Part shown: in pieces, positions 226 through 20,601 of the stretch
Position numbering within the stretch: position 1 is the stretch's first letter
How the letters are laid out: each line of letters opens with the position of its first letter
Assembly (NCBI GenBank): GCA_964573185.1
Contig: CAZNIQ010000004.1
Coordinates: 1-32,000, forward strand
DNA from: Candidatus Woesearchaeota archaeon
Lineage (GTDB): Archaea > Nanobdellota > Nanobdellia > Nanobdellales > CAZNIQ01
Direction: 5' to 3'
DNA length: 32,000 nt
Position numbers and translations under genes: made by a program
Notes under the pieces: generated by a model
What the model saw: the letters and a program-made list of their open reading frames with translations, nothing else
What the model was told of the DNA's origin: nothing
Databases searched by the model: none

Positions 226-987
226 TTATATTTCAATCTCTTTATATTTTTCTATTAAAGCTTTTTCCATTACCTTTCTTATCTCAGGAGCTTTCTCTAA
301 AGCGAGATTTAAAGCTTTCTTCAGATCTTCCTTAGAAATTTCTCCATCTAATTGAATCATTGCAAATTCTTTTTTTCTAGGAATTATTGCAACAGGAATA
401 TCAGTAGCTCTTCCCTTCCCATAATATTCTGCATACGCTTTCTTTTCAGGATCTTGTATTAATTTTTCGTAGTCATAATCTTCCTCTTCTTTAGTTAAAT
501 CAATTACGATTCTTTCCCCTACTTTCCCAACAGCTACCGCAGTAACTAAATCTTTCATTGGTATTCCAGCATCTGCTAAAGCCAAGATAGCAGCATTTAT
601 ACCAGCAGTTCTAGTCCCAGCATCTGCTTGCGGGATCTCAACATAAACGTCTATCTGCGTATAAGGAAATTCCTCTAAAAGTACTACTGCCTCCAAAGCT
701 CTTCTAATAACTTCTGAAAGTTCTATCTCTCTTCTAGATGGTCCAGGTTTCTTTCTTTCAGGAACAGAAAAAGTTAACATATTATATCTTACTCTCAAAA
801 TTGCTTTTTCTGGATCCCCTAAATGCTTTGGTATAAATTTGGGACCATATACATACGCTACAGCCCAAGTATCTCCAAATTTAAACATAGCGGATCCATT
901 TGCATTATCAAATATACCTACCTTTGCGAACATAGGTCTTATCTCATCATCCTTTCTGCCATCAAATCTCATAACTTTTAAATTCAT
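226..987 (-). CDS. rrp41: Exosome complex exonuclease Rrp41 (RNase PH fold)
   Basis: 253 aa. RNase PH-type motifs: DGR..DE.RP near the N-terminus, PGPSRREIE, QADAGTRTAGINAA. Has a ~20-aa insertion (YDYEKLIQDPEKKAYAEYYGKG) relative to what I recall of typical Rrp41. Confidence 0.9.
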   Translation of the reverse strand: MNLKVMRFDGRKDDEIRPMFAKVGIFDNANGSAMFKFGDTWAVAYVYGPKFIPKHLGDPEKAILRVRYNMLTFSVPERKKPGPSRREIELSEVIRRALEAVVLLEEFPYTQIDVYVEIPQADAGTRTAGINAAILALADAGIPMKDLVTAVAVGKVGERIVIDLTKEEEDYDYEKLIQDPEKKAYAEYYGKGRATDIPVAIIPRKKEFAMIQLDGEISKEDLKKALNLALEKAPEIRKVMEKALIEKYKEIEI

Positions 988-1505
988 AGAAAAAGTTATA
1001 TTTATGATTCCGGAAGATTACAAGAAATACACTAAAGCTTTTTCAAATAGCTCTAGAATTGAAAGATTATGTTAGCTGTAAAGCAATGTTCAAAACAAAA
1101 TTATTTTTTTATAGAGAAACATAATGTTTTTACCCTATTTTGTTGAAAAATTTAAAGAGGAGTTATTAAAGCTCTTAATTATTATATCTTTCTTATGAAG
1201 AATATTGCGATGAAGAAAAAGCAAAGAAAACTTTAGAATATGCCAAATAAATTTAAATAAAAAAGAAGAATTAGGAAGAAAATCATCATCGAAAATTAAA
1301 TAAAGAATTCGATATATAAATATTTATTTGATGTTCATGTTTTTGATTTAGAAACTTTTGAAAGATTACCAAATTTTCTTTCTAGAATAATATAAAAAAT
1401 AATTGGGAAAAGAGAAAAGAGGTTGGGGGTATATTAGTTAATAAATATAGTGTTTGGAGACTTTAAAGAATAAAGATTTAAAAATGAATTATAAGTATAT
1501 GCTCC

Positions 1506-1976
1506 ATGGGTCAGAAATATGTTCCAAGGGTTATTGGTGAGAAATATATTGATGCTACTGGTCTTGTAGCTGGAAGGTTAGCTTCCTATGTTGCCAAGTG
1601 GGCCTTATCCGGATATAGAGTATATGTAGTTAACGCAGAAAAAGCGATTATAACAGGAGACAAATATACCATATTTAGAATATTTAAGCAAAAAGTAGAC
1701 AGAGGAGATTGGTATAAAGGACCATTTTATCCAAGACAACCACATTTAATTTTGAAAAGAATAATTAGAGGAATGTTACCTTGGCATTCCTGGAGGGGCA
1801 GAATTGCTTTCAAAAGAATAAAATGTTACATCGGAATACCTGAAGAGTTAAAAGGAAAACAATTTGAAACAATACCTGAAGCAAAACCAAAATTTGAGAG
1901 GGGAGTAGTTAAATATGTAACTTTAGAAGAGCTCTCTAAATTCCTAGGAGCAAAATTCTATAAAGTTGAGCAGTAG
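1506..1976 (+). CDS. rpl13: 50S ribosomal protein uL13
   Basis: 156 aa. [17 protein letters not shown]...[11 protein letters not shown] is the classic L13 N-terminal signature. Confidence 0.9.
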
Positions 1977-3144
1977 TCTTTTACTTTTACTTCTCCTTTC
2001 AGCTTTCTTTTCAGCTTCAGAATCTGCATTACTCTCTTCTTCTTATGCCAAAATAAAAGCATCAAATAATAAAATAGCTATTAAGTTAAAAGAAAAAGAA
2101 GACGAAGTTTTAATTTCTATAGTAATTTGGAATAATATAGTAAATGTTTTGATAAGTATTCTTGTAGGAAATTACGTTACAGAGTTATTCGGCAGTTTCT
2201 CTCTAGGCTTAGCTACAGCAATAGCAACTTTTCTTTTGGTTACTTTCGGAGAAATTCTTCCAAAATCAATTGCAGTCAATTTAAAAGAAAGCTTTATATT
2301 AAGGATTGCACCAATCCTTTACTTCTTTCATATTATAATATCACCTATTTCAAAAGTGTATCTCTTTATTGTTAGAAAGATCACAAAAGGAGGATCTATT
2401 AGATATACAGAAGAAGAATTAAAGGTAATATTAGATATGGCGTATCTAAAAGATTTTGAAAGAAAAATAGTTCAAAGAGCATTAGAATTGGATTCTAAAA
2501 CAGTTGCAGATATTTTGATACCCAAAGATGATGTTGTAATGATATCTGAATCTGAAAGTTTGGGTACGGCATTAGAATTAATGAAAAAAACAAAGTATTC
2601 TAAGTTAATTACATACAATGGTGATAAAAATAACGTTACAGGTTATATTTCTTTAAAAGACGTAATAGAGCATTTAAATAACTTAAATAAAAAGGTTAAG
2701 GAAGTTAAGAGAAGTATTTTATTTGTTCCGGAGTATATGAAAGTTCTAGATTTAATAGATTTATTTAAGAGAAGCAGAATACCTATTGCAGCCGTAGTAG
2801 ACGAGTATGGAAACTTTTTAGGAATAGTTACTTTGACAGATACTTTAGAAGAGGTTTTTGGAGAACTTAGAGAGGTTGGAGAAACAGTTAAGCAAGATAT
2901 AGTTGTTCGGGGAAAAGAAATAATTGTGGATGGAGATGTAACAATAGATGATTTGAATACAAAATATAATCTAAAGTTGCCTAAAAATGAAAGTTATAAT
3001 ACGATAGCTGGTTTAATACTATATCATTTAAAGAGAATCCCGAGGAAAGGAGAAAGAATCAATATAAATAATTGCGAGATAGTAATAGAAGACGTTGATA
3101 ACAAAAGGATTAAGAAAGTGAGAATAATTTTTAAAGGTAAGTAG
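1966..3144 (+). CDS. CNNM/CorC-HlyC family membrane protein (DUF21 TM domain + CBS pair + CorC_HlyC domain), putative Mg2+/Co2+ efflux
   Basis: 392 aa. N-terminus [19 protein letters not shown] (DUF21), central CBS-pair-like region, C-terminal transporter-associated domain ([13 protein letters not shown]...[17 protein letters not shown]). TTG start overlaps the L13 stop. Confidence 0.85.
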
Positions 3145-3155
3145 AAAGAAGTCTT

Positions 3156-3560
3156 ATGTCTAAAATAGTAATTGCTGTTGGTAAGAGAAAAACTGCTATT
3201 GCGAGAGCTGTAATTAAACCCGGTATCGGAATTGTCAGAATTAATGGCTTTGCTTTAGATGCTTGGGGTAATGAATTAGCAAGATATAGAGTAATGGAAC
3301 CTCTAGTTTTGGCAGGACCTGAATACGTTAGAAAAGTAAATATTTATGTTAATGTAAAAGGTGGTGGAATTATGGGTCAAGCTGATGCTATAAGAACAGC
3401 TATCGCAAAAGGATTAGTTGAGTACTTTCAAGACGAGTACTTAGAAACTTTGTTTGAATTATATGATCCTTGGTTATTAAAATCTGATCCTAGAAGGAAA
3501 GAACAAAGGAAGTCACCGACATCAAAGGCTAGAAAGCACTACCAGACAGCTTACAGATGA
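3156..3560 (+). CDS. rps9: 30S ribosomal protein uS9
   Basis: 134 aa. GKRKTAIARA start and C-terminal ...KARKHYQTAYR are typical of S9. Confidence 0.92.
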   Translation: MSKIVIAVGKRKTAIARAVIKPGIGIVRINGFALDAWGNELARYRVMEPLVLAGPEYVRKVNIYVNVKGGGIMGQADAIRTAIAKGLVEYFQDEYLETLFELYDPWLLKSDPRRKEQRKSPTSKARKHYQTAYR

Positions 3561-3748
3561 TCTCAAAAGATTTACTACTGAAAAGTACAATATCTGGAAT
3601 CATTGCTACAATATTTGCAATTCTTTCAGTATATTTAGTTCACTTATTAGGAGTACCATTTACAACATTTAAAGAAACAATGATAGCAGTCATTATAACA
3701 GCTTTCGCCTCAGGTTTCTGTGGATTCTACTTTGGTAAAAGAAAATGA
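3557..3748 (+). CDS. Small membrane protein (two predicted TM helices), unknown function
   Basis: 63 aa with two hydrophobic stretches. ATGA start/stop overlaps with both S9 and rpoN suggest translational coupling. Confidence 0.5.
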   Translation: MISKDLLLKSTISGIIATIFAILSVYLVHLLGVPFTTFKETMIAVIITAFASGFCGFYFGKRK

Positions 3749-3942
3749 TAATTCCAGTTAGGTGCTTTACTTGTGGAAAACCTATTGGACATCTTTGGGA
3801 AAAGTATAAAGAATTATTAAAGCAGGGAAAAAGTCCTAAGGAAGCTTTAGATGAATTAGGATTAGAAAGGCAATGTTGTAGAGCGATATTCTTAACTCAT
3901 GTAGATTTAATACAGATACTTGCTAAATACAAAAAGCCTTGA
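3745..3942 (+). CDS. rpoN: DNA-directed RNA polymerase subunit N (Rpo10/Rpb10)
   Basis: 65 aa. MIIPVRCFTCGKPIG...CCR is the zinc-bundle signature of RpoN. Confidence 0.92.
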   Translation: MIIPVRCFTCGKPIGHLWEKYKELLKQGKSPKEALDELGLERQCCRAIFLTHVDLIQILAKYKKP

Positions 3943-4547
3943 TCTTTCAGGTAAAAAAGGTAAAAAACACATATATAATAGGAGTTGACCATGATTTAAT
4001 AAATAAAGAAGAATTTTTGAAGAGATACAACATTATAAAAGAAAAATACTACTCTTTTTTTGAAAAACTTGTTAAACACGATTATATATTTTTTATAGAG
4101 GCTAGATTTGATTACTTTGTAAATTTTCTATTAAATAAGGATCCTAGAATGTACGCTTTTGGCACTGCTGGTGCTATTTTGAAATTACTCGTAGAACTGG
4201 TGATGGAATTGAACAAGTTAGGAAAAACTGCTTTTATTGTTGCAGATCCCGCCCATGATGTATTAATAGATAAATACCCTTTGCTAAAAGCAATGGTTGA
4301 AAGTCCTTCTCTTATATATAAAACAGTGGCGTCTCTTTTAAAAGAAAGATTACCTTTTGACCCCACAATAACAATAGCTCCTGCTCAAACCTCCTTTGAT
4401 ATCTGGCTTTGGTATGGAATTATAAAACATTTTTCCCAAAATGAAAAATATTTGTCTAAATTAAAGAAAATTTTGAATAAAAAGGTAAGTAGAAGGGGTT
4501 TTCTTAAGTTTTTGGGGAAAGCCATTCTTGGTTACAGCATTTACTAG
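3939..4547 (+). CDS. Hypothetical protein, upstream part of a reading frame interrupted by one TAG
   Basis: 202 aa with no motif I recognise. The C-terminus (KKVSRRGFLKFLGKAILGYSIY) begins a hydrophobic helix that is cut by TAG at 4545-4547. Same frame as 4563..4874. Confidence 0.55.
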   Translation: MIFQVKKVKNTYIIGVDHDLINKEEFLKRYNIIKEKYYSFFEKLVKHDYIFFIEARFDYFVNFLLNKDPRMYAFGTAGAILKLLVELVMELNKLGKTAFIVADPAHDVLIDKYPLLKAMVESPSLIYKTVASLLKERLPFDPTITIAPAQTSFDIWLWYGIIKHFSQNEKYLSKLKKILNKKVSRRGFLKFLGKAILGYSIY

Positions 4548-4562
4548 TTCCTAGCTTCTACG

Positions 4563-4874
4563 TTGTTTATGATATTTCCTCAAACGAACTATATTTCTAT
4601 TAATGCTACCGACTTTAGGAACGTTATAATTTCAAAAATTGTTCAAAAAATAAAAGGTAAAAAAGTAATTATTAATGGAGCAGGGCACATACCGGGATTG
4701 GAATTCTACTTAAGCCATTCAGTAGCTCTTGAGACAAAATTCGAATTTTATGATGCTCTATCAAAACTTCTGACGAAGAAAAACCTAGGAGAATTGTGGT
4801 ACATTTATTATAGATTGGCAAAAATGGGAAATAAGATTTATTTTGCCGCAAAATACGATAAGATTAAGATTTAG
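4563..4874 (+). CDS. Hypothetical protein, downstream part of the TAG-interrupted frame
   Basis: 103 aa, in frame with 3939..4547 (offset 624 nt). The codons after the TAG (FLASTLFMIF) continue the hydrophobic run. The stop codon shares its last base with tRNA-Pro position 1. Confidence 0.45.
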   Translation: MFMIFPQTNYISINATDFRNVIISKIVQKIKGKKVIINGAGHIPGLEFYLSHSVALETKFEFYDALSKLLTKKNLGELWYIYYRLAKMGNKIYFAAKYDKIKI

Positions 4875-4944
4875 GGGCCGTAGGCTAGCGGTAGGCTGCC
4901 GGGTTCGGGTCCCGGTGACCCGGGTTCGAATCCCGGCGGCCCCA
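4874..4944 (+). tRNA. tRNA-Pro (anticodon CGG)
   Basis: Manual cloverleaf: acceptor GGGGCCG/CGGCCCC, D stem GGCT/GGCT (2 GC + 2 GU pairs), anticodon stem CCGGG/CCCGG with loop TTCGGGT, variable TGAC, T arm CCGGG-TTCGAAT-CCCGG, discriminator A. No encoded CCA. Confidence 0.9.
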
Positions 4945-4950
4945 TTTGAT
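4901..4950 (+). repeat. attL: 3' half of tRNA-Pro plus 6 nt of flank, left copy of the direct repeat
   Basis: Base-by-base alignment with 7993-8042 gives perfect blocks of 17 nt (cccggtgacccgggttc) and 18 nt (aatcccggcggccccatt) and 5 mismatches in 50. Confidence 0.75.
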
Positions 4951-5089
4951 ATTTACCAGAAAACAACAATTCTTTTAGTATAGATCGAATTTCATTGTCT
5001 TTTAGAAGATCTTTTAACTCTCTCAAAAGTTTAAGCTTTTTCTTAAGATCATGATAAGCTCTTTTAGTTTGAGACATGATAATCCCGGG

Positions 5090-5350
5090 CTACTCCATTA
5101 GGATACTATAATTAACCTGATACTTTTTCCCATCCCATAAGATGATCCCTTTATGATTTAGTAACTCTAATAGTTCATAGACTGTTTCTTTATCTAATCT
5201 TAATTCGTACATTAAGACTGCTACTAACTCCTCTATTGTGGGTAGTTCCTTTTGTTTTGCATAATAAAAGGAATAGAAATCAATTATAATTGTAAGTGTT
5301 TGTTTTAGCAATTTCCTTAGTTCTTCCGGAGGGAATTGTTCTAAAAGCAT
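5090..5350 (-). CDS. Small winged-helix (wHTH)-like DNA-binding protein, element-encoded
   Basis: 86 aa. TIEELVAVLMYELRLDKETVYELLELLNHKGIILWDGKKYQV resembles a helix-turn-helix plus beta wing. Confidence 0.55.
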   Translation of the reverse strand: MLLEQFPPEELRKLLKQTLTIIIDFYSFYYAKQKELPTIEELVAVLMYELRLDKETVYELLELLNHKGIILWDGKKYQVNYSILME

Positions 5351-5409
5351 CTTTTATATTTGGATATATAATTACTTTTTGTACTGAACGATACTTTCTT
5401 TTATTATAA

Positions 5410-5538
5410 TTATCCATTTTTAGTTTTTTGCAATTTCTTCTTTTCCTCCTCTTCCTGCATTTTCTTTAATTCCTTTAGTTTTTCTAAAACCCATTGTGGC
5501 AAACCAAGTTCTTTTACAAAATCTTCGGGTTTTAGCAT
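5410..5538 (-). CDS. Mini-ORF (42 aa), HTH/excisionase-like, element-encoded
   Basis: My own translation: MLKPEDFVKELGLPQWVLEKLKELKKMQEEEEKKKLQKTKNG. Below the ORF-track size cutoff. Same strand as the wHTH gene and divergent from the cargo ORFs. Confidence 0.35.
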   Translation of the reverse strand: MLKPEDFVKELGLPQWVLEKLKELKKMQEEEEKKKLQKTKNG

Positions 5539-5633
5539 GATAAAATTGCAAAAGAAAAACAATCTGTTTTTATTTTTCCAGATCATACTTTTCTGTACAT
5601 AATTTTATAAAAACCTTAGCTATAAAAAATTAC

Positions 5634-6710
5634 ATGGTACTATACATAGGCTTCTTAAAAGCAGTTTTACAAGATTCTCTTTCTTTCAAAAAATCTTATA
5701 CTACAAAAAAATACAAGTTTTATTTGGAAGGAGAAAAGGATAATACATATTATTATAGAACCTATATTTTACCTAAAGTAAAAGGAAGTGTTGTGTCTTT
5801 TCCCATTCTTTTAGGTACTATAAAGCTTAAGAGAATAGAAAAAACAAATATTTTGATTGTAGAGATAAATCCTAAATCTGGTAGAGAAAAGGAAGATATA
5901 AAGAAAGCTTATTCCTCACTTGTAAAAAGTCTGCCAGGTATTTATTATATAAACAGTTATATTATTTTTTCAGAATTTTTCAAAAGATATTTGAAGGGAA
6001 TACTTTCAGAGTACAATCTCTATATTCAAAAAATCGATTTTTTATACATTACTAAATACGGTAAAATAGGAGAATACAAAGGAAAAGAGTACGTGTCAAA
6101 ATATGGAAGCGTTTTAGATTTAAAAGATATTAATGAACTTTATGAAGATTTAAAAAGAAAGGGTATTGAAAAAATAATACCGTATGTTTTTTCAATAACA
6201 GATCGTAAGTTTCCTATAGCAATATTTACTGTAAAAAGAAGCTTGATCGCCGTAACGGATTATGGATTAAGAAAATATGAAGAGGTAATTGAACAGATTA
6301 AAAATAAGATTATTGAACTGGTTTTAAAAATAGAAAATATATCTAAATATAAAACAGGAAATCGAGTCAATAACAAGTTTGCAACTTCCAGTACAATAGA
6401 TATAATTAAAGAAGAATACTATTTTGTTAGAAATTCCTATTTAAGCCTATTAAAAAAAGAAGAATTATTAAAGTTGGAAGAAGCTATATTGAGCAACCCT
6501 ATTAGCTACTTCATTGCAGAGGATAAAGAAGGAAGGATTGATATAATATCACTAAGGAAAGAGGGAGATAACGTAGAAATATATGTAACGCCATTTGATT
6601 TATTTAGAAATACAGTATCACCTGTTATAATAGATAAGTGGGAAGCTCTCAGATATATTACATACTCGGAAAATGATGATCTCTTCAGAAATATTCAAAA
6701 AATTACTTGA
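5634..6710 (+). CDS. Orphan protein (358 aa), element cargo gene 1
   Basis: Long ORF with no motif I recognise. It contains no His and no Cys. It overlaps the next ORF by 38 nt. Confidence 0.65.
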   Translation: MVLYIGFLKAVLQDSLSFKKSYTTKKYKFYLEGEKDNTYYYRTYILPKVKGSVVSFPILLGTIKLKRIEKTNILIVEINPKSGREKEDIKKAYSSLVKSLPGIYYINSYIIFSEFFKRYLKGILSEYNLYIQKIDFLYITKYGKIGEYKGKEYVSKYGSVLDLKDINELYEDLKRKGIEKIIPYVFSITDRKFPIAIFTVKRSLIAVTDYGLRKYEEVIEQIKNKIIELVLKIENISKYKTGNRVNNKFATSSTIDIIKEEYYFVRNSYLSLLKKEELLKLEEAILSNPISYFIAEDKEGRIDIISLRKEGDNVEIYVTPFDLFRNTVSPVIIDKWEALRYITYSENDDLFRNIQKIT

Positions 6711-7662
6711 AAATTATAAATACGAAATTATTGATTTTTATTTTTATAATTTAATATTTTTGGGTAGTCTGGCTTCAGCTATAATTGCAGGAAAATATTA
6801 TCCTATTGAAATAGAGAAAAATGGAAAATACGATATTTTAGTAGAATTAGATGATAGAACTTTAGATTTTGAAATTACAAGAATAATTAGCTCCTCCAAC
6901 AGAGAGAAGTTAATAGATTATATAAACAAGAAAAAACGCGCTGCAGAAGAGATAAAGGCTACTCCTGTATTAGTAGTATTGGTAGAAGAAGGTAACAAGG
7001 ATCTTTTTGAAATAAAGAAAGTTTTAGATGATTCAAAACTTTCCTACATCATTGCAAAATTTAAAATAGAAAAGGATTATGATATATTTATAGATTTTGA
7101 AACGTATACAGAAGATCTTATTATTAAAGATATTTTTGAATTTATTAAAAATATTCATAAAAGAGTAACCAAAACTCCCCCCGATACCCTTAGAGCGCTG
7201 TTATTAAAACTTCCCTTTATTCAAGATTTTGAATCAAAGCCAGATTACGAAATTCTAACCTTAGTTTCAATTTTTAATCATCTTTATTATGTTATAAAAA
7301 GTTTTAGAGATATAAACATAGAGAGATATTTGTATTCCGATTTGCCAAAAGAGTTTGTTGGAATATTAAAAGAACATTTAATTAATAACCTAAGGAATTT
7401 AGATTTAGAAAGAAAGGACATTGAAAATTACATAGAGCTTTTTATTGAAAATTCAAAAATTCGAGAACGAATTGAAAGAATATTTAAATATCGTCTATAT
7501 TATAGAATTCGGGATTTTTGTCGGGATCTTAAAAAGTTATCTGAAAATAAAATTAAGAAATGTTTAGAGAAGCTTATAGAAGTAAAAGAGTGCTACGAAA
7601 AAGATGATAATAAAAATAAAAGAAAATACAAAGAGTGTTTAAAGAGGATCCTTGGAATCTAA
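6673..7662 (+). CDS. Orphan protein (329 aa), element cargo gene 2
   Basis: N-terminal hydrophobic segment (FYFYNLIFLGSLASAIIAG). K/E-rich helical C-terminus with four spaced Cys. No Walker, HUH or other catalytic motif recognised. Confidence 0.65.
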   Translation: MMISSEIFKKLLENYKYEIIDFYFYNLIFLGSLASAIIAGKYYPIEIEKNGKYDILVELDDRTLDFEITRIISSSNREKLIDYINKKKRAAEEIKATPVLVVLVEEGNKDLFEIKKVLDDSKLSYIIAKFKIEKDYDIFIDFETYTEDLIIKDIFEFIKNIHKRVTKTPPDTLRALLLKLPFIQDFESKPDYEILTLVSIFNHLYYVIKSFRDINIERYLYSDLPKEFVGILKEHLINNLRNLDLERKDIENYIELFIENSKIRERIERIFKYRLYYRIRDFCRDLKKLSENKIKKCLEKLIEVKECYEKDDNKNKRKYKECLKRILGI

Positions 7663-7839
7663 AAAATAACTATAATTTTCCAATAACATCTAAAAATATG
7701 TTTTCTATAAAGTTTTATTATTTTACCCACCTTTTCTCTTGCAACCTCCTGAATAACTTACTTTACCTCTCCCTTAGAGATCTTGATAACTTCTACAAAT
7801 GCTCATCTTTGCTCTTTACTTTTGAGAATTTAAATGTTA

Positions 7840-8037
7840 TTAAATCTTGTCTATTCTATAGAAGAGATCCTTGATGTGGCTTTCAGAGAGATTCCGGGTT
7901 ACCAACCAATAGTAGAATTCATCGAGAAGATCCAAATTTACAGAAACAAATAAATACTGACGAAATATTGAAAAGTTTGAAATTGTTTGAATGGGCTTGG
8001 GACCCGGTGACCCGGGTTCAAATCCCGGCGGCCCCAT
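7840..8037 (-). pseudogene. Int(C) remnant of the partitioned integrase (truncated)
   Basis: 65-aa ORF starting antisense in the att repeat (MGPPGFEPGSPGP). It continues with LLDEFYYWLVTRNLSESHIKDLFYRI, reminiscent of a tyrosine-recombinase N-domain. It stops at 7840, and 7663-7839 has only stop-interrupted frames. Confidence 0.45.
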
Positions 8038-8042
8038 TAGAT
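7993..8042 (+). repeat. attR: partial tRNA-Pro-like 3' half, right copy of the direct repeat
   Basis: Carries the anticodon-stem 3' strand, variable region, T arm (TTCAAAT) and acceptor 3' strand plus A. It lacks a 5' half. Its anticodon-loop-like segment is CTTGGGA (UGG type). Confidence 0.75.
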
Positions 8043-8450
8043 TTTGTTTTCTGTTCTTGTTATAGTAAAATAAATTAATGTTAATGCAATATTTGAAACA
8101 TTACTAACTTATCTTTATAACTTACATCTCCTAATTTTAATACTTCTTCTAATAACGTAATCGCTTATATAATAAATATAACTAAAATTTCCATTAGGGT
8201 TCGCAGGTGCTTTAATTCACGTAATTTATTATCTCAATATACAATACTTCCATATAGAATTATAAGCGGGATAAAAGAAAAGAAAATATTTTGGAGAGTT
8301 GTATGTATTTTAAAAAAAGATTATGAAGAACGAAACAAACACAAGAACGAAATATATTATCATTGTATAGATAAAAAATTTTGCAAATTCTAGTATTATT
8401 CCTTTTATTTTTGACTTATCCTTAATAAAGTTTAAAAACATATTATTTTA

Positions 8451-8506
8451 GGCCCGGTACCGCTATCGGGTTGAGACGTGATACCTGACTTCAAACCGGG
8501 CCGACA
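8451..8506 (+). ncRNA. H/ACA box sRNA candidate (single hairpin)
   Basis: GC-rich island: lower stem GGCCCGG/CCGGGCC, 8-nt and 7-nt pocket strands (TACCGCTA, CTTCAAA), upper stem TCGGGT/ACCTGA, 11-nt loop TGAGACGTGAT with two GA steps, then G-ACA. There are 15 nt from the upper-stem base to ACA. Confidence 0.6.
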
Positions 8507-8507
8507 A

Positions 8508-9596
8508 TTATGTGTTAATTTTAAATCTTAGTATTCCGCCTATTTTAAAGTTGGAAAATTGTTCTCCTTCTGGCGTTTTCTTTGAAATAATTTCCACTTT
8601 CGTTCCCATTTGTTCTGCAAGTTCTATTAATTCTTTTAATTTTTCTTTATCAAAGTCTTCTGAAACCAATAATACTTCTACAGCACCCATTTCTAAAGCT
8701 TTTTTCGTATCTTCATATCCATAAACGACCATATCGGGATCTTTTGCTAGATAATAGAAAAACTTCTCTAATAATTTCTTTTCTCTTATCAAGGAAGTTT
8801 TTTCTAACACATCCTTAGCTCTTTCAACTAATTCTCTTAATCCGTACTCATCTGAGTATCCGGTGTCAACCACTGCTATTATTTTTTGTTTGAGGTAATA
8901 TGGCAAATAGTCTCCTTCTACAAACTCTTCTTTCAAAGGTCCAGGTCCTCCTACAATTATTCCCCTTAAATTATCTTTGTATTTGTCAAAATACTCTCTA
9001 GCTTTCTCTCCTATATATTTTAACCAATTATGTGTTTCCTGTTCAATTATTCTCTGAAATCTTACAGCAGATTGTCCTCCTTTATGATGTTTCGACGGAA
9101 CCCAAGAATCCCTAGATTCTAAAACAATTATATCTTTTCCTTTTAGCAAACCAATAGCCATAGAACCTCTATCTAGGACTATCAAACCGTAAACATCTTT
9201 ATCTTCAAGTAATTTCTTTAGAGGATCTAAAACGAATTTTGAATCACAACGATATAATCTTATTCTTAAGGGTTCTGGAGGCTCTATAACCCACATTCTT
9301 ATGTCAGTCTTATCCTTTCCAACATTCCCACAGAATATAATCAATCCCTTGTCTGGAATTTTCTTAAATTTCTTTAGATAGTTTATGATTTTTGCTAAAG
9401 CTTCTGAAACATGTTGTCTTGTAGTTTTATCCTTTATGTTTTGTGCTGTTGAATATTCATAAGAAAGATGGTCTAAAAGCTTTGCTAAATCATAGCCAGC
9501 TGGGATATAATAACTAATCAATTCAGTACCTCTTCCCTCAATTTTCTCTAATTCTTCTATAAGCATTTTGAGCTTTAACTTTTGAACATCATCCAT
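8508..9596 (-). CDS. prf1: Peptide chain release factor aRF1
   Basis: 362 aa. GGQS motif (HHKGGQSAVRF), YRCDSKF (YxCxxxF), and TAQNIKDKTTR (NIKS-type motif, here NIKD). Confidence 0.92.
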   Translation of the reverse strand: MDDVQKLKLKMLIEELEKIEGRGTELISYYIPAGYDLAKLLDHLSYEYSTAQNIKDKTTRQHVSEALAKIINYLKKFKKIPDKGLIIFCGNVGKDKTDIRMWVIEPPEPLRIRLYRCDSKFVLDPLKKLLEDKDVYGLIVLDRGSMAIGLLKGKDIIVLESRDSWVPSKHHKGGQSAVRFQRIIEQETHNWLKYIGEKAREYFDKYKDNLRGIIVGGPGPLKEEFVEGDYLPYYLKQKIIAVVDTGYSDEYGLRELVERAKDVLEKTSLIREKKLLEKFFYYLAKDPDMVVYGYEDTKKALEMGAVEVLLVSEDFDKEKLKELIELAEQMGTKVEIISKKTPEGEQFSNFKIGGILRFKINT

Positions 9597-9612
9597 GTGT
9601 AAAAAATAAAAA

Positions 9613-12111
9613 TTAAGGCTTATAAATAATCTCTTTTACTTTTAAATAACTCTTTATCTCTTCTTCAAACGGCTTTATATCTTCTTCCTTAAAAGGTATT
9701 TCTATTTTTTCTATTTCTTCTTTCAATTTCAATCCCTTTTCAGTCTTCCACTTCCTTATATATGTAATAGCTTCTAGCATTTTTCTTCCTTTCTCAAGAA
9801 TTTCTTTATCATAGATTTCTACTTTAGGATATTCAGTCTCATGTATAGATTTCTTTCCTTCTCTTTCAGCAAACATTATATTATAGATTTCTTCAGTAAT
9901 AAATGGTAAGAACGGTGCTAGTATTCCAAGTATTTGTCTTAAAACATATAGTAATGTCCATTTTGCTGCTGGATCATTATTTTTAACTCTTTCTTTAACT
10001 AGTTCTAAATAATTATCTGCAAATATTTCCCAAACAAATTTTCTTATTCTTTTTAGAGCCTCCCAAAATCTATATTCTTTCATTTGTCCTTCTACAAAAT
10101 CTATTAATTCTTTTAACTCAGATATTATCCAGATGTCTATTGGTTTTAAGTCTACTTTCGTATTTAAATCTATATCTTTACAATTCATCCAAATATATCT
10201 TGATATATTCCAAAGTTTTATTAAGAATGATTGTCCAGCTTCTATGTCTTTCCATGTAAATCTATAATCATATCCGTGTGCAGCTAATAAAGCCCAATAC
10301 CTAAAAGCGTCAGCAGGATATCTCTCTAAAACATCAAATGGTGTTACAACATTTCCTAAAGATTTTGACATTTTCCTTCCTTTCTCATCTACAATCATTC
10401 CGTTGATTAAAACCTCTTTCCAAGGTATTTTGCCTGTCAAAATATAAACCCTATATAATGTATTGAACAACCATGTTCTAATAATTTCATATCCTTGGGG
10501 TCTTAGATTAACTGGTACTTTCTCTTTAGCCAATCTGTAAGCTTCTTCAAATGATTTTCCATCTTTTACAAACGCATAAACCAATATTGCCAAAGGTGTT
10601 ATTGATGATTCCACCCAGCAATCCAAAACGTCTTTTACAGGCTCTACTTCCTCTTCTTTACATCCATACTTCTCTAAAATCTCTTTAGGCGGTTTTTCTA
10701 ATCTAGGATCTACGGGTAATTTATCTTTCGGTGCAGGAATTATTATTTCTTTTCCGTCTTTTTTACATATCCAGAAAGGAAATGGACAACCCCAAACTCT
10801 TTGTCTAGAAATAACCCAATCCCAAGCTATAGAATTTATCCAATCAATTAATCTTTGCCTCATCTCTTCAGGATAGAACTTTATTTCTTTTTGTATTTCT
10901 AATAACTTATCCTTGAATTCTTGAACTTTAAAGAACCATTGATATGTTGGTCTTAATTCTATAGGATGCTGACAATCAGATCTTTCTGTATGTGCTAAAA
11001 CGTTATGTTCTATTTCTTTTAGATCATAAAGATAACCTTTTTCTTTCAAAATTTCAATAATCTTTTTCCTAGCTTCCTGAACCTTTAACCTCTCTATCTC
11101 TGGAATATTTGTATTGATTAATCTTCCTTTTTCATCAATTATTTCATAAACTGGTAAACCGTATCTCTTCTGCCAAACGATGTCTTGCTCATCACCATAA
11201 GTACAAACCCATACAATACCTGTTCCAAACTCTGGATCAACATCTGGATCTGCCTTTAAAGAAACTGTTCTATCTATCAAAGGAATTCTTATTTTAATTT
11301 TTTCTAACTCTTCTTTTGTTAAAGTTCTTTTTATTTTTAACCCTTTTTCTTCAGCATATTTTTTTGAAACTATTAATTTTTCTTCAGTCTCAACATACTC
11401 TCCTTTATCTGAGAATAGGACTATAACACATGCAGGTAACATTTCAGGTCTAGTAGTTGCTATTAAAACGTACCTTCCATCTTCGGTTGGCAATTTAATA
11501 TAAGCTAAAATTCCTTTCATCTTTTTATATCCAACTTCTTGTGCAGAAACTGCAGTTTCACAGTTTGGACACCAATAAACTGGATGTTTATCCCTGTATA
11601 ATAATCCTTTTTCATACATTTCAATTAAAGTATATTGTGTTAGCTTTTTGTAAAGATCATCCATAGTCATATATTCTTTCTCCAAATCTTGTATTACTCC
11701 TGCTTTTAGAAAAGCTTCTTTCATCCTATCCCTAGCCCATAAAGTCCACTCTCTACAAGCTTTTATGAATTCTTCGACATTTTCCTTAGGTATTTTCTTT
11801 TTCTTTTCAATCTTTAATTCTGTAGGTAAGCCATGAACGTCCCAACCAATAGGAAAATAAACATTATATCCATGCATTCTCATATATCTTGCAATAAAAT
11901 CCATCCAAACAAAACCAAAGACTGTACCTACATGAGGTTCACCAGAAGTAAATGGAGGAGGAGTGTCTATAATATATACTTTATCCCATTTTTTAGGATC
12001 AAATCTGTAGATATAGAATAGATCCTTTGTCCATCTTTCTAACCACTTTTTTTCTATTTCTTTGAAGTTTGGTCTTTTAGGAAATTCCATAAAGCTTTTA
12101 ATTAAAACCAA
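9613..12111 (-). CDS. valS: Valyl-tRNA synthetase (class I aaRS); the likely true start is the ATG at 12090
   Basis: IDTPPPFTSGEPHVGT (HIGH region), GWDVHGLPTE, TTRPEMLPA, KMSKSLGNVV. The ~830-aa size fits archaeal ValRS better than IleRS or LeuRS. The track start at 12111 is TTG, while the ATG (MEFPKRP...) at 12090 has TTTTATATA centred about 26 nt upstream. Confidence 0.85.
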   Translation of the reverse strand: MVLIKSFMEFPKRPNFKEIEKKWLERWTKDLFYIYRFDPKKWDKVYIIDTPPPFTSGEPHVGTVFGFVWMDFIARYMRMHGYNVYFPIGWDVHGLPTELKIEKKKKIPKENVEEFIKACREWTLWARDRMKEAFLKAGVIQDLEKEYMTMDDLYKKLTQYTLIEMYEKGLLYRDKHPVYWCPNCETAVSAQEVGYKKMKGILAYIKLPTEDGRYVLIATTRPEMLPACVIVLFSDKGEYVETEEKLIVSKKYAEEKGLKIKRTLTKEELEKIKIRIPLIDRTVSLKADPDVDPEFGTGIVWVCTYGDEQDIVWQKRYGLPVYEIIDEKGRLINTNIPEIERLKVQEARKKIIEILKEKGYLYDLKEIEHNVLAHTERSDCQHPIELRPTYQWFFKVQEFKDKLLEIQKEIKFYPEEMRQRLIDWINSIAWDWVISRQRVWGCPFPFWICKKDGKEIIIPAPKDKLPVDPRLEKPPKEILEKYGCKEEEVEPVKDVLDCWVESSITPLAILVYAFVKDGKSFEEAYRLAKEKVPVNLRPQGYEIIRTWLFNTLYRVYILTGKIPWKEVLINGMIVDEKGRKMSKSLGNVVTPFDVLERYPADAFRYWALLAAHGYDYRFTWKDIEAGQSFLIKLWNISRYIWMNCKDIDLNTKVDLKPIDIWIISELKELIDFVEGQMKEYRFWEALKRIRKFVWEIFADNYLELVKERVKNNDPAAKWTLLYVLRQILGILAPFLPFITEEIYNIMFAEREGKKSIHETEYPKVEIYDKEILEKGRKMLEAITYIRKWKTEKGLKLKEEIEKIEIPFKEEDIKPFEEEIKSYLKVKEIIYKP

Positions 12112-16750: not shown

Positions 16751-17142
16751 AGGCTTATGGGCATCCTTTAATAAAAGCAACACACAAATCTACGTTTGAA
16801 ATTACAAAAGATAACTATTTAACTCCAAGAGGGGACTGTATTATAGGGATAAAAGCCTCTCACTCAGTAAAGGATTTACCAATAGAGCTTAAAGAACACT
16901 TAAAGAAAGGCGGCAAAATAGAAATAATATTAAAGGTAGATGATTTAGAAGATAAGATAATTGCGTATGGACACCCTAATCTAATTTTAACAAATGAAAG
17001 ATCTATTGTTGTTAGAAGAAGTACTTTCATAGATGATAGAACTTTAGCTATAAGGGCTAATAAAGCTGCTAAAGACATTAGAAGAGATCTTATTGAAGAA
17101 TTGAAAAAAGAGAAGGAACTAGAATTTATTATTATATGGTAA
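16732..17142 (+). CDS. Conserved archaeal protein, DUF371-like
   Basis: 136 aa. HPLIKATHKSTFEITKDNYLTPRGDCIIGIKA resembles the DUF371 signature as I recall it. Confidence 0.5.
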   Translation: MPRFVIKAYGHPLIKATHKSTFEITKDNYLTPRGDCIIGIKASHSVKDLPIELKEHLKKGGKIEIILKVDDLEDKIIAYGHPNLILTNERSIVVRRSTFIDDRTLAIRANKAAKDIRRDLIEELKKEKELEFIIIW

Positions 17143-17193
17143 TCAGCCCCTAGGTTCTTCATCAATCTTCAGGGCTCAAGACCGTCATCATTT
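17141..17193 (-). ncRNA. C/D box sRNA (2'-O-methylation guide)
   Basis: The minus strand reads ATGATGA(C)-CGGTCTTGAGCC-CTGA(D')-AGAT-TGATGA(C')-AGAACCTAGGGG-CTGA(D). Both guides are exactly 12 nt. Confidence 0.85.
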
Positions 17194-17194
17194 T

Positions 17195-17251
17195 TGTACC
17201 CCGGGACAGAGATCGGTGATCACAAATCCCACCGACGTCGCGGCCCGGGGC
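17195..17251 (-). ncRNA. H/ACA box sRNA candidate, directly 5' of the C/D sRNA
   Basis: Minus strand: lower stem CCCCGGG/CCCGGGG, pocket strands CCGCGACG (8 nt) and TCTCTGT (7 nt), upper stem TCGGTG/CACCGA, 11-nt loop GGATTTGTGAT, then T-ACA. There are 15 nt from the upper-stem base to ACA. Same architecture as 8451-8506. Confidence 0.6.
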
Positions 17252-17353
17252 TTTTATATATATTTATATAAAAGTTTATAATATTTTAAAATACATTAAA
17301 ATCAGATAGTTTGTGTGGGTTTAAAAATAAAGCGATTAGGAAGTTGTAGAAAA

Positions 17354-20002: not shown

Positions 20003-20601
20003 ATTCGAATTTCTTCTGCGAACCCAGAATTTATTAACATTTCGGCTACATCTTTTGGTAACGTAACTATCTCTTCTGGTTTATAAGGCCCATAGGTTTG
20101 TAGATCTGTACCGACGAACTCGGATATCTCCTTTACAATTCTAACAACTTTTACATTTCTCTCTTTTGGCAAACCAGATGCTTTTAGTATTTTATTCAAT
20201 TCCTTTCCTAATTCTTCTAATTTTGGTTTTTCTCCAGAAAGAACTGATTCTAAAACATATTTTCTAAAAGCTAATAAAGTATTAAAAAGTATTTTATATA
20301 ATACTTTTTCCTCAATAGTTAATTTATCAATATCTTCGCTTTCAGATTTTAATCTTGAAGTTATCAATGCTAATTCTAATATCTTTTTTTCCCTTAAATC
20401 ATAAATATCTCTTATCAATAATTTCAAGTTTTCAAGTTCTATTCTAAGTTTTTTCAGCTCTTCCGTATCTATTTCCTTTACTTTCTCAATAATTCTGTTT
20501 AGTCTACTTATTTGATCTGCTACCTTTCTGTAAAATAGCTCATCCAATTTTTGGATACTTCTTAGATTTTTCTCCTTTTGATAAATTGAGAATAAGTTCA
20601 T
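19999..20601 (-). CDS. GINS subunit (Gins51/Gins15 family)
   Basis: 200 aa. DLREKKI helical A domain. C-terminal VRIVKEISEFVGTDLQTYGPYKPEEIVTLPKDVAEMLINSGFAEEI is the typical B-domain pattern. It lies directly downstream of the primase gene, as in other archaea. Confidence 0.65.
   Translation of the reverse strand: MNLFSIYQKEKNLRSIQKLDELFYRKVADQISRLNRIIEKVKEIDTEELKKLRIELENLKLLIRDIYDLREKKILELALITSRLKSESEDIDKLTIEEKVLYKILFNTLLAFRKYVLESVLSGEKPKLEELGKELNKILKASGLPKERNVKVVRIVKEISEFVGTDLQTYGPYKPEEIVTLPKDVAEMLINSGFAEEIRI

What the first reader, a model, noticed from the sequence alone, without database searches (positions are those of the whole stretch)
4874..8042. ~3.1-kb element integrated in tRNA-Pro(CGG) with an SSV-type partitioned, now truncated, integrase gene
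Seen: 4901-4950 (3' half of tRNA-Pro plus 6 nt of flank) recurs in direct orientation at 7993-8042, 45/50 identical, with perfect 17-nt and 18-nt blocks. The antisense strand of both copies is open in the same frame (MGPPGFEPGSPGP). At the left copy this frame is the tail of an ORF that begins 44 codons inside the element (5077). At the right copy it runs 52 more codons into the element, through LLDEFYYWLVTRNLSESHIKDLFYRI, which resembles the N-terminal helices of tyrosine recombinases. Joining the repeats by excision would fuse both into one ORF spanning attP. Established: SSV1-type archaeal integrases carry attP inside int, so integration into a tRNA gene splits int into Int(N) and Int(C). 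Inference: this is a small integrated plasmid or provirus. The rebuilt ORF stops after ~110 codons, and 7663-7839 holds only stop-riddled frames. The catalytic domain therefore appears lost and the element is probably fixed in place.
Basis: partly seen in the sequence, partly recalled or inferred. Interest (0 to 1): 0.8.

Follow-up and report, generated by a model that had tools for sequence, protein, structure and literature searches.

The report
Decayed mobile element in tRNA-Pro gene
A 3.1-kb piece of foreign DNA sits in the end of a proline-tRNA gene of a tiny heat-loving symbiotic archaeon (Nanoarchaeota) and still carries the broken stub of the self-splitting "suicidal" integrase used by archaeal viruses and plasmids; this is an ordinary kind of relic, but I found no earlier report of this integrase class in that phylum.

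Summary
An intact tRNA-Pro(CGG) lies at 4874-4944. Its last 44 nt plus flank (4901-4953) recur at 7993-8045 (47/53 identical), enclosing five ORFs with the lowest G+C in the window.

The host is a Nanopusillaceae-like nanoarchaeon. Relatives keep tRNA-Pro(CGG) at the same place; the one whose downstream sequence I could read lacks the 3-kb block.

The SSV-type reading is supported. Joining the repeats gives one 109-codon ORF that crosses att antisense to the tRNA, in the same frame as SSV1 integrase (PPGFEPG). It carries the family's post-att motif at the same spacing (38 vs 40 residues). hhalign against 13 suicidal integrases gives E 6e-6 for the fused ORF and 0.003 for the 52 post-att residues alone. 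A motif-only HMM ranks this ORF first of 566 six-frame pieces. The scores are weak, so the case rests on their conjunction. No catalytic domain survives, so the element is a relic.

The right copy has a Pro(UGG)-type anticodon loop, so attP mimicked another isoacceptor. The 358-aa cargo protein has one distant homologue, which sits in a low-GC island of another archaeon. No strict empty site or circular junction could be found.

The parts
4874..4944 (+). Intact tRNA-Pro(CGG), the integration target. The reconstituted gene overlaps attL.
   Evidence: ARAGORN and Rfam tRNA at 65 bits. Identical over 67 nt to the syntenic tRNA of relative L019, and one difference (position 55 G/A) from L016 and L018.
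4901..4953 (+). attL: tRNA positions 28-71 plus 9 nt of flank.
   Evidence: Direct repeat family D1, 47/53 identical to 7993-8045. Mismatch positions are listed.
4871..5077 (-). int(N): a 68-codon ORF with 44 element-encoded codons (5077-4946), then the att-encoded MGPPGFEPGSPGP, then read-through of the tRNA antisense strand.
   Evidence: ORF list. It starts 12 nt after the stop of the 86-aa ORF, in an operon-like arrangement. The coding strand is 56% purine, near the 57-61% of host genes. No sequence similarity to the N-termini of known integrases.
5090..5350 (-). 86-aa ORF, probably a winged-helix DNA-binding protein of the element.
   Evidence: Only sub-threshold Pfam hits: WHD_MCM8 E 8e-4, Phage_rep_O 0.03, Penicillinase_R 0.09.
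5410..5586 (-). 58-aa ORF of unknown function, first gene of the leftward operon.
   Evidence: ORF list. No family hits.
5587..5633 (.). 47-nt divergent intergenic region with TATA-like A/T boxes, the presumed promoters of both operons.
   Evidence: Read directly from the sequence. Promoter function is an inference.
5634..6710 (+). 358-aa cargo ORF, near-orphan.
   Evidence: Only itself among 5.8 G proteins in the word-indexed search. One distant homologue, P0123, at E 1.3e-4 among 1.84 G representatives; BLASTP 28% identity over 309 aa. No Pfam, PHROG, NCBIfam or PADLOC hit.
6673..7662 (+). 329-aa cargo ORF of unknown function.
   Evidence: No family hits. AF2 model unusable, pLDDT 39. Marginal collinear similarity (z about 4 against shuffles) to the 349-aa ORF that follows P0123 in L023.
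7663..7839 (.). Stop-riddled spacer where the rest of int(C) should be; the presumed deletion scar.
   Evidence: Three-frame translation. The full-length family HMM finds nothing there.
7840..8037 (-). int(C) remnant: the att-encoded MGPPGFEPGSPGP plus 52 codons that end just after the first helices of the SAM-like / core-binding region.
   Evidence: BLASTP against SSV1 integrase: 30.8 bits, pairwise E 3e-6, residues 44-108 against 63-130. hhalign against 13 suicidal integrases: E 6e-6 fused, 0.0028 post-att alone. Rank 1 of 566 six-frame pieces with a motif-only HMM. Pfam Phage_int_SAM_5 E 0.04. Against: coding-strand purine content is only 0.44.
7993..8045 (+). attR: an orphan tRNA-Pro 3' fragment with a UGG-type anticodon loop (CTTGGGA) and TTCAAAT T-loop, plus 9 nt of flank.
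   Evidence: Not called as a tRNA by ARAGORN even in intron mode. No second copy of the 5' part of the tRNA in the window.

Best explanation
This is the decayed remnant of an integrative plasmid or provirus of the SSV-type ('suicidal integrase') class, in the chromosome of a Nanopusillaceae-like nanoarchaeon.

The free element carried, inside its integrase gene and antisense to it, a ~53-bp attP that mimicked the 3' two-thirds of a tRNA-Pro. Its anticodon loop was UGG-type. The integrase recombined attP with the chromosomal tRNA-Pro(CGG) gene. The crossover most simply lies in the 18-bp identical block 4929-4946.

That event rebuilt an intact tRNA-Pro(CGG) at attL and left an orphan 3' fragment at attR. 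It also split int into int(N) (5077->att) and int(C) (att->7840). These steps are inferred from the anatomy.

Later, a deletion or other decay removed everything in int(C) beyond about 52 post-att codons, including the whole catalytic domain. Other genes may have gone too.

What remains is a 3,092-bp unit that cannot move on its own. It has a leftward operon (58 aa, 86-aa winged-helix, int(N)) and a rightward pair of near-orphan genes (358 aa and 329 aa).
For: The repeat and the tRNA are real.

Evidence for an insertion:
- The host is a nanoarchaeon. It has a fused PriS-PriL primase, and the best named aRF1 hits are Nanopusillaceae at 66-67%.
- Relatives L016, L018 and L019 share identical RpoN and have tRNA-Pro(CGG) at the syntenic position. 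So the CGG anticodon and the 5' part at attL are chromosomal.
- L016 has no such block after the tRNA.
- The element's G+C (26.9%) is lower than all 91 other 3-kb windows, and its tetranucleotide distance is exceeded by only 1 of 91.
- The cargo genes are near-orphans. The only homologue of the 358-aa gene starts exactly where G+C falls from about 42% to about 22% in another archaeon's contig.

Evidence for a suicidal-type integrase:
- The fused ORF is 109 codons in one frame. The chance of this geometry is about 0.1-0.35%.
- SSV1 integrase reads its own att as DPPGFEPG, the same orientation and frame as MGPPGFEPG here. ASV1, AGV1 and pGE2 do the same.
- The motif EFYYWLVTRNLSESHIKD..IDK aligns with SSV1 [25 protein letters not shown], 38 vs 40 residues after PPGFEPG.
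- hhalign gives E 6e-6 (85% probability) for the fused ORF and 0.0028 for the post-att part alone. The latter improved from 0.035 when the profile grew from 8 to 13 sequences.
- The motif-only HMM ranks this piece first of 566 (next best is 25-fold worse) and first of 2001 against its own shuffles.
- int(N) follows the preceding ORF by 12 nt.
Against: - No catalytic domain or PF16795 match was found anywhere.
- All similarity scores are weak. The same family HMM gives a surely spurious E 1e-4 hit to the primase, so parametric E-values in this K/E-rich proteome are optimistic.
- The 52 post-att codons are pyrimidine-rich on the coding strand (purine 0.44, against 0.56-0.64 for real genes).
- The N-terminal 44 residues resemble no known Int(N).
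- The AF2 model of the fused ORF is unusable, pLDDT 50.
- No empty site, circular junction or intact relative of the element was found in any collection.
- The right flank (aRF1) is not syntenic with relatives either. The insertion therefore cannot be separated from a rearrangement.
Confidence: 0.7

Rival explanations
1. It is an integrated element, but not of the suicidal type. A classical integrase that stays intact on integration (pNOB8- or lambda-like), or a helper's integrase acting in trans, inserted it at tRNA-Pro. The open frames across att are a by-product of GC-rich tRNA DNA in an AT-rich genome, and the motif match is chance.
For: GC-rich tRNA DNA lacks stop codons: all three antisense frames are open in most of attL. 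The post-att codons have atypical strand composition for a gene. The scores are weak, and the HMM also produces a spurious primase hit. No catalytic domain is present.
Against: Only one antisense frame is open in attR, and it is the frame that continues on both sides. It is also the frame used by SSV1, ASV1, AGV1 and pGE2 integrases. The best motif match of the whole six-frame window falls exactly in this ORF (1 of 566; about 0.003 by length share). No classical integrase gene lies in the element or elsewhere in the 32-kb window (and the precomputed Pfam hits).
Confidence: 0.17
2. The right copy is a working 3' half (or 3' exon) of a split tRNA-Pro(UGG) gene of the kind known from Nanoarchaeum equitans. 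The 3-kb block is then ordinary chromosome between two tRNA-Pro loci.
For: The host is a nanoarchaeon. The fragment has a perfectly canonical UGG anticodon loop (CTTGGGA) and T-loop. Relatives have non-canonical tRNA introns in the anticodon stem, for example tRNA-Phe in L016.
Against: Homology starts inside the anticodon stem (position 28), leaving only 3 of 5 stem pairs. The upstream sequence is AT-rich, with no GC-rich leader. No 5' half lies in the window, and ARAGORN in intron mode finds nothing. The fragment is absent from all fetched relatives. Split tRNAs are reported only for N. equitans and not for Nst1 (PMC3655853). This reading does not explain the flank similarity, the ORF geometry or the integrase motif.
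Confidence: 0.04
3. The right copy is a tRNA-Pro(UGG) pseudogene left by a chromosomal rearrangement or deletion between tRNA genes, with no mobile element involved. The enclosed genes are fast-evolving lineage-specific host genes.
For: Synteny in these genomes is very poor, and the element's right end coincides with a synteny break. Relatives have the CCA-adding enzyme right after aRF1. Dinucleotide signature and GC3 do not differ from the host.
Against: The similarity extends 9 nt beyond the tRNA into both flanks, as expected for att sites. G+C is the lowest in the window. The homologue of the cargo gene lies in a clearly foreign low-GC island. The integrase-like ORF spans the junctions.
Confidence: 0.05

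Closest known systems
SSV1 / fusellovirus proviruses with SSV-type (type I, 'suicidal') integrase
   Same: attP lies inside int. att is the 3' part of a tRNA gene (44 bp in SSV1). Integration rebuilds the tRNA and leaves a direct repeat, with int(N) and int(C) overlapping the two copies (PMC3293823, PMC8371274). The reading direction and frame through the T-arm are the same (PPGFEPG), and the post-att motif sits at the same spacing.
   Different: The host is a nanoarchaeon, not Sulfolobales. Int(N) is 44 rather than 63 codons and is unrelated in sequence. The catalytic domain is missing. There are no fuselloviral genes (no DnaA-like, VP1-3 or other SSV core genes). The element is 3.1 kb, against 15 kb.
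pT26-2 / pTN3 / pGE2 plasmids and TKV-type integrated elements of Thermococcales
   Same: These are marine hyperthermophile elements with suicidal integrases and short Int(N) parts. pGE2 reads att as AGFEPA followed by EYYNWLKGRVTERTARDYVSALEKL, the closest-looking match to EFYYWLVTRNLSESHIKDLFYRIDKI. Decayed integrated copies are common, and trans-excision is known (PMC8371274).
   Different: No other gene is shared. Those elements are 18-24 kb. The target here is tRNA-Pro. The host phylum differs.
pSSVi and pXZ1, small integrative Sulfolobus plasmids (5.7 and 7.0 kb) with SSV-type integrase
   Same: They are small elements with few genes, and their integrase contains att, read in the RDLNPG frame.
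   Different: Their integrases are intact. The replication genes are unrelated. The host differs.
tRNA-Thr locus insertion in Caldiarchaeum subterraneum (Sugahara et al. 2012, PMC3293823)
   Same: A small (1.8-kb) insertion is bounded by a tRNA gene and a tRNA fragment, and was discussed as a route to disrupted tRNA genes.
   Different: There the fragment is a 5' part, the element encodes an intact recombinase and is multi-copy, and it introduced an intron.

Membership tests
SSV-type (suicidal-integrase) integrative elements | attP lies inside the integrase ORF, so integration splits it into int(N) overlapping the rebuilt tRNA and int(C) overlapping the direct repeat. | tested here: met
   ORFs 5077->4871 and 8037->7840 share one frame through the repeat, and joining gives one 109-codon ORF. 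The chance of this geometry is about 0.001-0.0035.
SSV-type (suicidal-integrase) integrative elements | att is the 3' part of a tRNA gene and is present as a direct repeat at both borders. | tested here: met
   The repeat is 53 nt, 47/53 identical, and covers tRNA positions 28-71 plus flank.
SSV-type (suicidal-integrase) integrative elements | The region just after att is similar in sequence to family members (start of the core-binding / SAM-like part). | tested here: inconclusive
   The result is positive but weak. hhalign gives E 6e-6 for the fused ORF and 0.0028 for the post-att part alone. The remnant ranks 1 of 566 with a motif-only HMM. Pfam SAM_5 gives E 0.04. The same family HMM gives a spurious primase hit at E 1e-4.
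SSV-type (suicidal-integrase) integrative elements | C-terminal catalytic domain Phage_integr_3 (PF16795) with the R..K..R..Y residues. | tested here: not met
   No Pfam hit. The full-length family HMM finds nothing in any minus-strand frame of 7000-8045. This is therefore a relic, not a functional member.
SSV-type (suicidal-integrase) integrative elements | Site-specific integration or excision; existence of attB and attP forms. | not testable with these tools
   There is no access to reads. Degenerate att-pattern scans of the genome, metagenome and viral collections gave 0 hits. Logan contigs show only the integrated state at attR.
Classical (pNOB8 / lambda-type) integrative elements | An intact integrase gene lies next to att, not across it. 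| tested here: not met
   None of the five element ORFs, and no other ORF of the window, has a recombinase domain.
Split tRNA genes (Nanoarchaeum type) | The 3' half is preceded by a GC-rich leader complementary to the trailer of a separate 5' half, and the junction forms a bulge-helix-bulge motif. | tested here: not met
   The sequence upstream of 7993 is AT-rich. No 5' half lies in the window. Homology begins at position 28 inside the stem. The rest of the genome could not be searched.

The most novel reading that the evidence does not exclude
The 109-codon att-spanning gene may not be a wreck. It could be a complete N-terminal-only derivative of a suicidal integrase, serving as an att-binding or directionality module. 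The 3.1-kb unit would then be a non-autonomous satellite, moved in trans by the full integrase of an undiscovered nanoarchaeal virus or plasmid.

In the same reading, its attP carries a ready-made tRNA-Pro(UGG) 3' part. Such elements could then seed orphan tRNA halves or swap anticodons. That would be direct material for the idea that mobile-element integration drove tRNA gene fragmentation in Nanoarchaeota.
Probability: 0.08. Interest if true: 0.7.

Novelty: new member of a known kind. Interest (0 to 1): 0.4.

Why it matters
Suicidal (SSV-type) integrases are catalogued for Sulfolobales, Desulfurococcales, Thermococcales, Archaeoglobales and Methanosarcinales. The 2021 review of archaeal tyrosine recombinases does not mention Nanoarchaeota or DPANN (PMC8371274). 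No held paper combines 'suicidal integrase' with Nanoarchaeota.

A relic of this class in a nanoarchaeon would extend their host range to ultra-small symbionts.

It would also give a concrete example of mobile-element integration into an unfragmented tRNA gene, in the phylum where tRNA gene fragmentation has been proposed as a barrier to exactly that (Randau and Soll hypothesis, as summarised in PMC3293823).

The UGG-type anticodon loop in attR shows that an element's attP can mimic one isoacceptor while the element inserts into another.

Practically, the orphan fragment and the two att-overlapping ORFs are likely to be mis-annotated in MAGs.

Tried and rejected
Searches for an empty site or for relatives:
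- aRF1-based scans of GTDB genomes and JGI metagenomes found nothing.
- Degenerate att-pattern scans of the genome, metagenome and viral collections gave 0 hits.
- All exact-protein look-ups returned only the same population, always carrying the element.
- aRF1 orthologues at 69-81% identity have a different downstream neighbour, the CCA-adding enzyme, so synteny gives no empty site on that side.

Homology searches for element proteins:
- Pfam, PHROGs, NCBIfam and PADLOC gave nothing significant.
- tblastn of the fused ORF against phage and plasmid records gave nothing.
- IMG/VR scans with the 358-aa ORF, the 329-aa ORF and P0123 gave nothing.

Structure: AF2 single-sequence models of the 329-aa ORF (pLDDT 39) and the fused ORF (pLDDT 50) were too poor for fold search, so no fold search was run.

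Ideas rejected:
- I first took an inverted 31-nt match to attR in relative L016 for an att remnant. It is the 3' end of an intron-containing tRNA-Phe(GAA) that shares its acceptor and T-arm with tRNA-Pro. This sharing is the likely reason Logan contigs break inside tRNA-Pro, so those breaks are not evidence for alternative junctions.
- I considered that integration converted a tRNA-Pro(UGG) gene into CGG. This is rejected because relatives have CGG at this locus, and L016 has it without the element.
- A CRISPR-repeat-like 35-mer at 8065-8099 is single-copy.

Full report
**Observation.** ARAGORN and Rfam place an intact 71-nt tRNA-Pro(CGG) at 4874-4944. The segment 4901-4953 (tRNA positions 28-71 plus 9 nt of flank) recurs in direct orientation at 7993-8045 with 47/53 identity. 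The last 22 nt of the tRNA occur twice in the window, against none in 100 shuffles. The minus-strand ORFs are exactly as described: 5077->4871 (68 aa) and 8037->7840 (65 aa). Joining homologous positions yields a single 109-codon ORF. The region 7663-7839 is closed in all minus-strand frames.

**Host and sources.** The window is about 30% G+C with GC-rich tRNAs and archaeal housekeeping genes. It encodes a fused PriS-PriL primase. I know that fusion from Nanoarchaeum; this is my own recollection, not a tool result. The best named aRF1 relatives are Nanopusillaceae MAGs (66-67%) and Nanobdella (62%). The window is 100% identical to Logan contigs of SRR7968109. It is 99.9% identical to an ENA contig and to NCBI MAG GCA_027062685.1, and all of these carry the element without a single SNP inside it.

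**Is it an insertion?** Three relatives with an identical RpoN protein (L016, L018, L019; about 89-91% DNA identity over L13-S9) have tRNA-Pro(CGG) at the same place downstream of RpoN. The window's tRNA is identical to L019's over 67 nt. It differs from L016 and L018 only at T-loop position 55 (G vs A). In L016, the only relative whose contig continues, the tRNA is followed by 215 nt, an intron-containing tRNA-Phe on the other strand and a PIN gene. None of the five ORFs is there.

The 3,039 bp between the repeats have 26.9% G+C, lower than all 91 other 3-kb windows. Their tetranucleotide distance is exceeded by only one window. Dinucleotide signature and GC3 are not distinctive.

A strict empty site is missing. 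The sequence right of attR (462 nt of spacer, then aRF1) is not what follows tRNA-Pro in L016. In relatives aRF1 is followed directly by the CCA-adding enzyme. The right end of the element therefore coincides with a synteny break.

**Fine structure of att.** Three of the six mismatches lie in the anticodon loop. The left copy reads TTCGGGT (CGG) and the right copy reads CTTGGGA, a fully canonical Pro(UGG) loop. A fourth mismatch is the T-loop G/A, and two are in the flank. CGG is ancestral at this locus, so the left part of attL is chromosomal and the UGG-type loop came with the element.

The simplest model puts the crossover in the 18-bp block 4929-4946. In that model attP was ...GGGCTTGGGACCCGGTGACCCGGGTTCAAATCCCGGCGGCCCCATTTGATATT. 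It matched attB at 40 of 44 tRNA positions. This is inference.

**The integrase question.** Geometry alone is suggestive. In attR only one antisense frame is open, and it is the frame that continues for 52 codons inward and, at attL, for 44 codons upstream to an ATG placed 12 nt after the preceding ORF. The chance of this under a Markov model is about 0.1-0.35%.

Database searches with the fused ORF found nothing beyond a sub-threshold Pfam Phage_int_SAM_5 hit (E 0.04). Direct comparison with known suicidal integrases was more informative:
- SSV1 integrase (att annotated at codons 64-78) reads its att as QADPPGFEPGTSG. That is the same orientation and frame as QMGPPGFEPGSPG here.
- ASV1, AGV1 and pGE2 use this frame too. 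Others use the RDLNPG or GIRTRD frames.
- BLASTP of the fused ORF against SSV1 Int gives 30.8 bits (pairwise E 3e-6). It aligns residues 44-108 with 63-130, including EFYYWLVTRNLSESHIKD..IDK against [25 protein letters not shown]. The motif lies 38 vs 40 residues after PPGFEPG.
- hhalign against 13 suicidal integrases gives 85% probability and E 6e-6 for the fused ORF.
- For the 52 post-att residues alone, which exclude the tRNA-encoded peptide, hhalign gives E 0.0028 at the expected columns. This improved from 0.035 with 8 sequences.
- An HMM of only the motif columns, run over all 566 stop-to-stop pieces of the six-frame translation of the window, ranks this ORF first (E 0.058, next best 1.5). 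It also ranks first of 2001 against its own shuffles.

Several caveats apply:
- The full-length family HMM also hits the primase at E 1e-4. That hit is surely spurious, so parametric E-values here are optimistic. I rely on the rank test and on the coincidence of place, frame and spacing.
- The post-att codons are pyrimidine-rich on the coding strand, unlike real genes.
- Int(N) resembles no known N-terminus.
- The AF2 model is unusable.
- No trace of the catalytic domain exists.

I put about 0.7 on 'relic of a suicidal integrase gene' and about 0.9 on 'integrated foreign element'.

**Cargo.** The leftward operon has a 58-aa ORF, an 86-aa probable winged-helix protein (sub-threshold hits only) and int(N). 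The rightward genes (358 and 329 aa) are near-orphans. The 358-aa protein has one distant homologue among 1.84 G representatives: P0123, E 1.3e-4, 28% identity over 309 aa. P0123 is followed by a 349-aa ORF with marginal collinear similarity to the 329-aa ORF (z about 4).

In contig L022 this pair begins exactly where G+C drops from about 42% to about 22%. It is followed by ATPases matching the candidate defence families PDC-S27 and PDC-S01. The pair therefore looks like a mobile two-gene module of unknown function.

**Mechanism.** See the best explanation. Integration by site-specific recombination at the tRNA 3' part, partition of int, and later loss of the catalytic part are all inferred. 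Only the anatomy is shown. Because int(C) is truncated next to a convergent gene, the present 3.1 kb may be the remainder of a larger element.

**Rivals.** Four alternatives were weighed:
- A classical or trans-acting integrase, with the ORFs across att arising by chance (0.17).
- A functional split tRNA-Pro(UGG) half (0.04). Against it: homology starts inside the anticodon stem, the upstream sequence is AT-rich, there is no 5' half in the window, and the fragment is absent from relatives. Split tRNAs are known only in N. equitans and not in Nst1 (PMC3655853).
- A tRNA pseudogene left by rearrangement (0.05).
- A UGG-to-CGG conversion of the gene by the element. This is rejected by the relatives.

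**Comparison and novelty.** The element works like an SSV-type provirus or plasmid. By membership it meets the architectural criteria but fails the catalytic-domain criterion, so it is a relic of that kind and not a functional member. Reviews of the class list Crenarchaeota and Euryarchaeota hosts only (PMC8371274). It is a new, decayed member of a known kind in a new host phylum, of moderate interest.

Noticed in passing
window 3939-4547 and 4563-4874: The 202-aa and 103-aa ORFs just upstream of the tRNA correspond to one continuous 311-aa ORF in relative L019 (78% and 74% identity). This is either a split gene or a fresh pseudogene in the window lineage. In L016 and L018 the gene is degraded to fragments.
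   Followed up: partly
window 3557-3748: A 63-aa hydrophobic ORF (two predicted membrane helices) lies between S9 and RpoN. It is absent from L016, L018 and L019, where S9 and RpoN overlap directly. The window has 183 extra nt.
   Followed up: no
window 8046-8507: A 462-nt non-coding spacer separates attR from aRF1. In relatives aRF1 is followed within about 20 nt by the CCA-adding enzyme. The spacer holds a GC-rich island at 8447-8478 with weak snoRNA-like hits. It also holds a single CRISPR-repeat-like 35-mer at 8065-8099 that does not recur. A synteny break coincides with the element's right end.
   Followed up: partly
window 17141-17271 (-): A GC-rich hairpin with an ACA tail gives a sub-threshold H/ACA match (Pab19, 30.7 bits). 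Next to it is a C/D-box-like sRNA (sR23, 26.7 bits). These are probably guide RNAs.
   Followed up: partly
window 20598-21944 (-): A single 448-aa ORF combines the small- and large-subunit primase domains (PriS-PriL fusion). The suicidal-integrase family HMM gives it a spurious E 1e-4 hit.
   Followed up: partly
L016 12068-12176 (-): tRNA-Phe(GAA) has a 32-nt intron at a non-canonical place in the anticodon stem. Default ARAGORN misses it and intron mode finds it. Its last 31 nt are identical to tRNA-Pro, which probably explains why k-mer assemblies break inside tRNA-Pro.
   Followed up: yes
L022 about 8100-11436; L023 about 450-7857: G+C drops sharply from about 42% to about 22% at the 3' end of a Trm5/TYW2-like methyltransferase gene. 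The low-GC island starts with the P0123 and 349-aa pair and continues with ATPases matching PADLOC candidates PDC-S27 and PDC-S01. The island borders were not found.
   Followed up: partly
L016 10594-11737: Between RpoN and tRNA-Pro this relative has two unrelated ORFs (184 and 208 aa) in place of the 311-aa gene. This is another variable spot next to the same tRNA.
   Followed up: no
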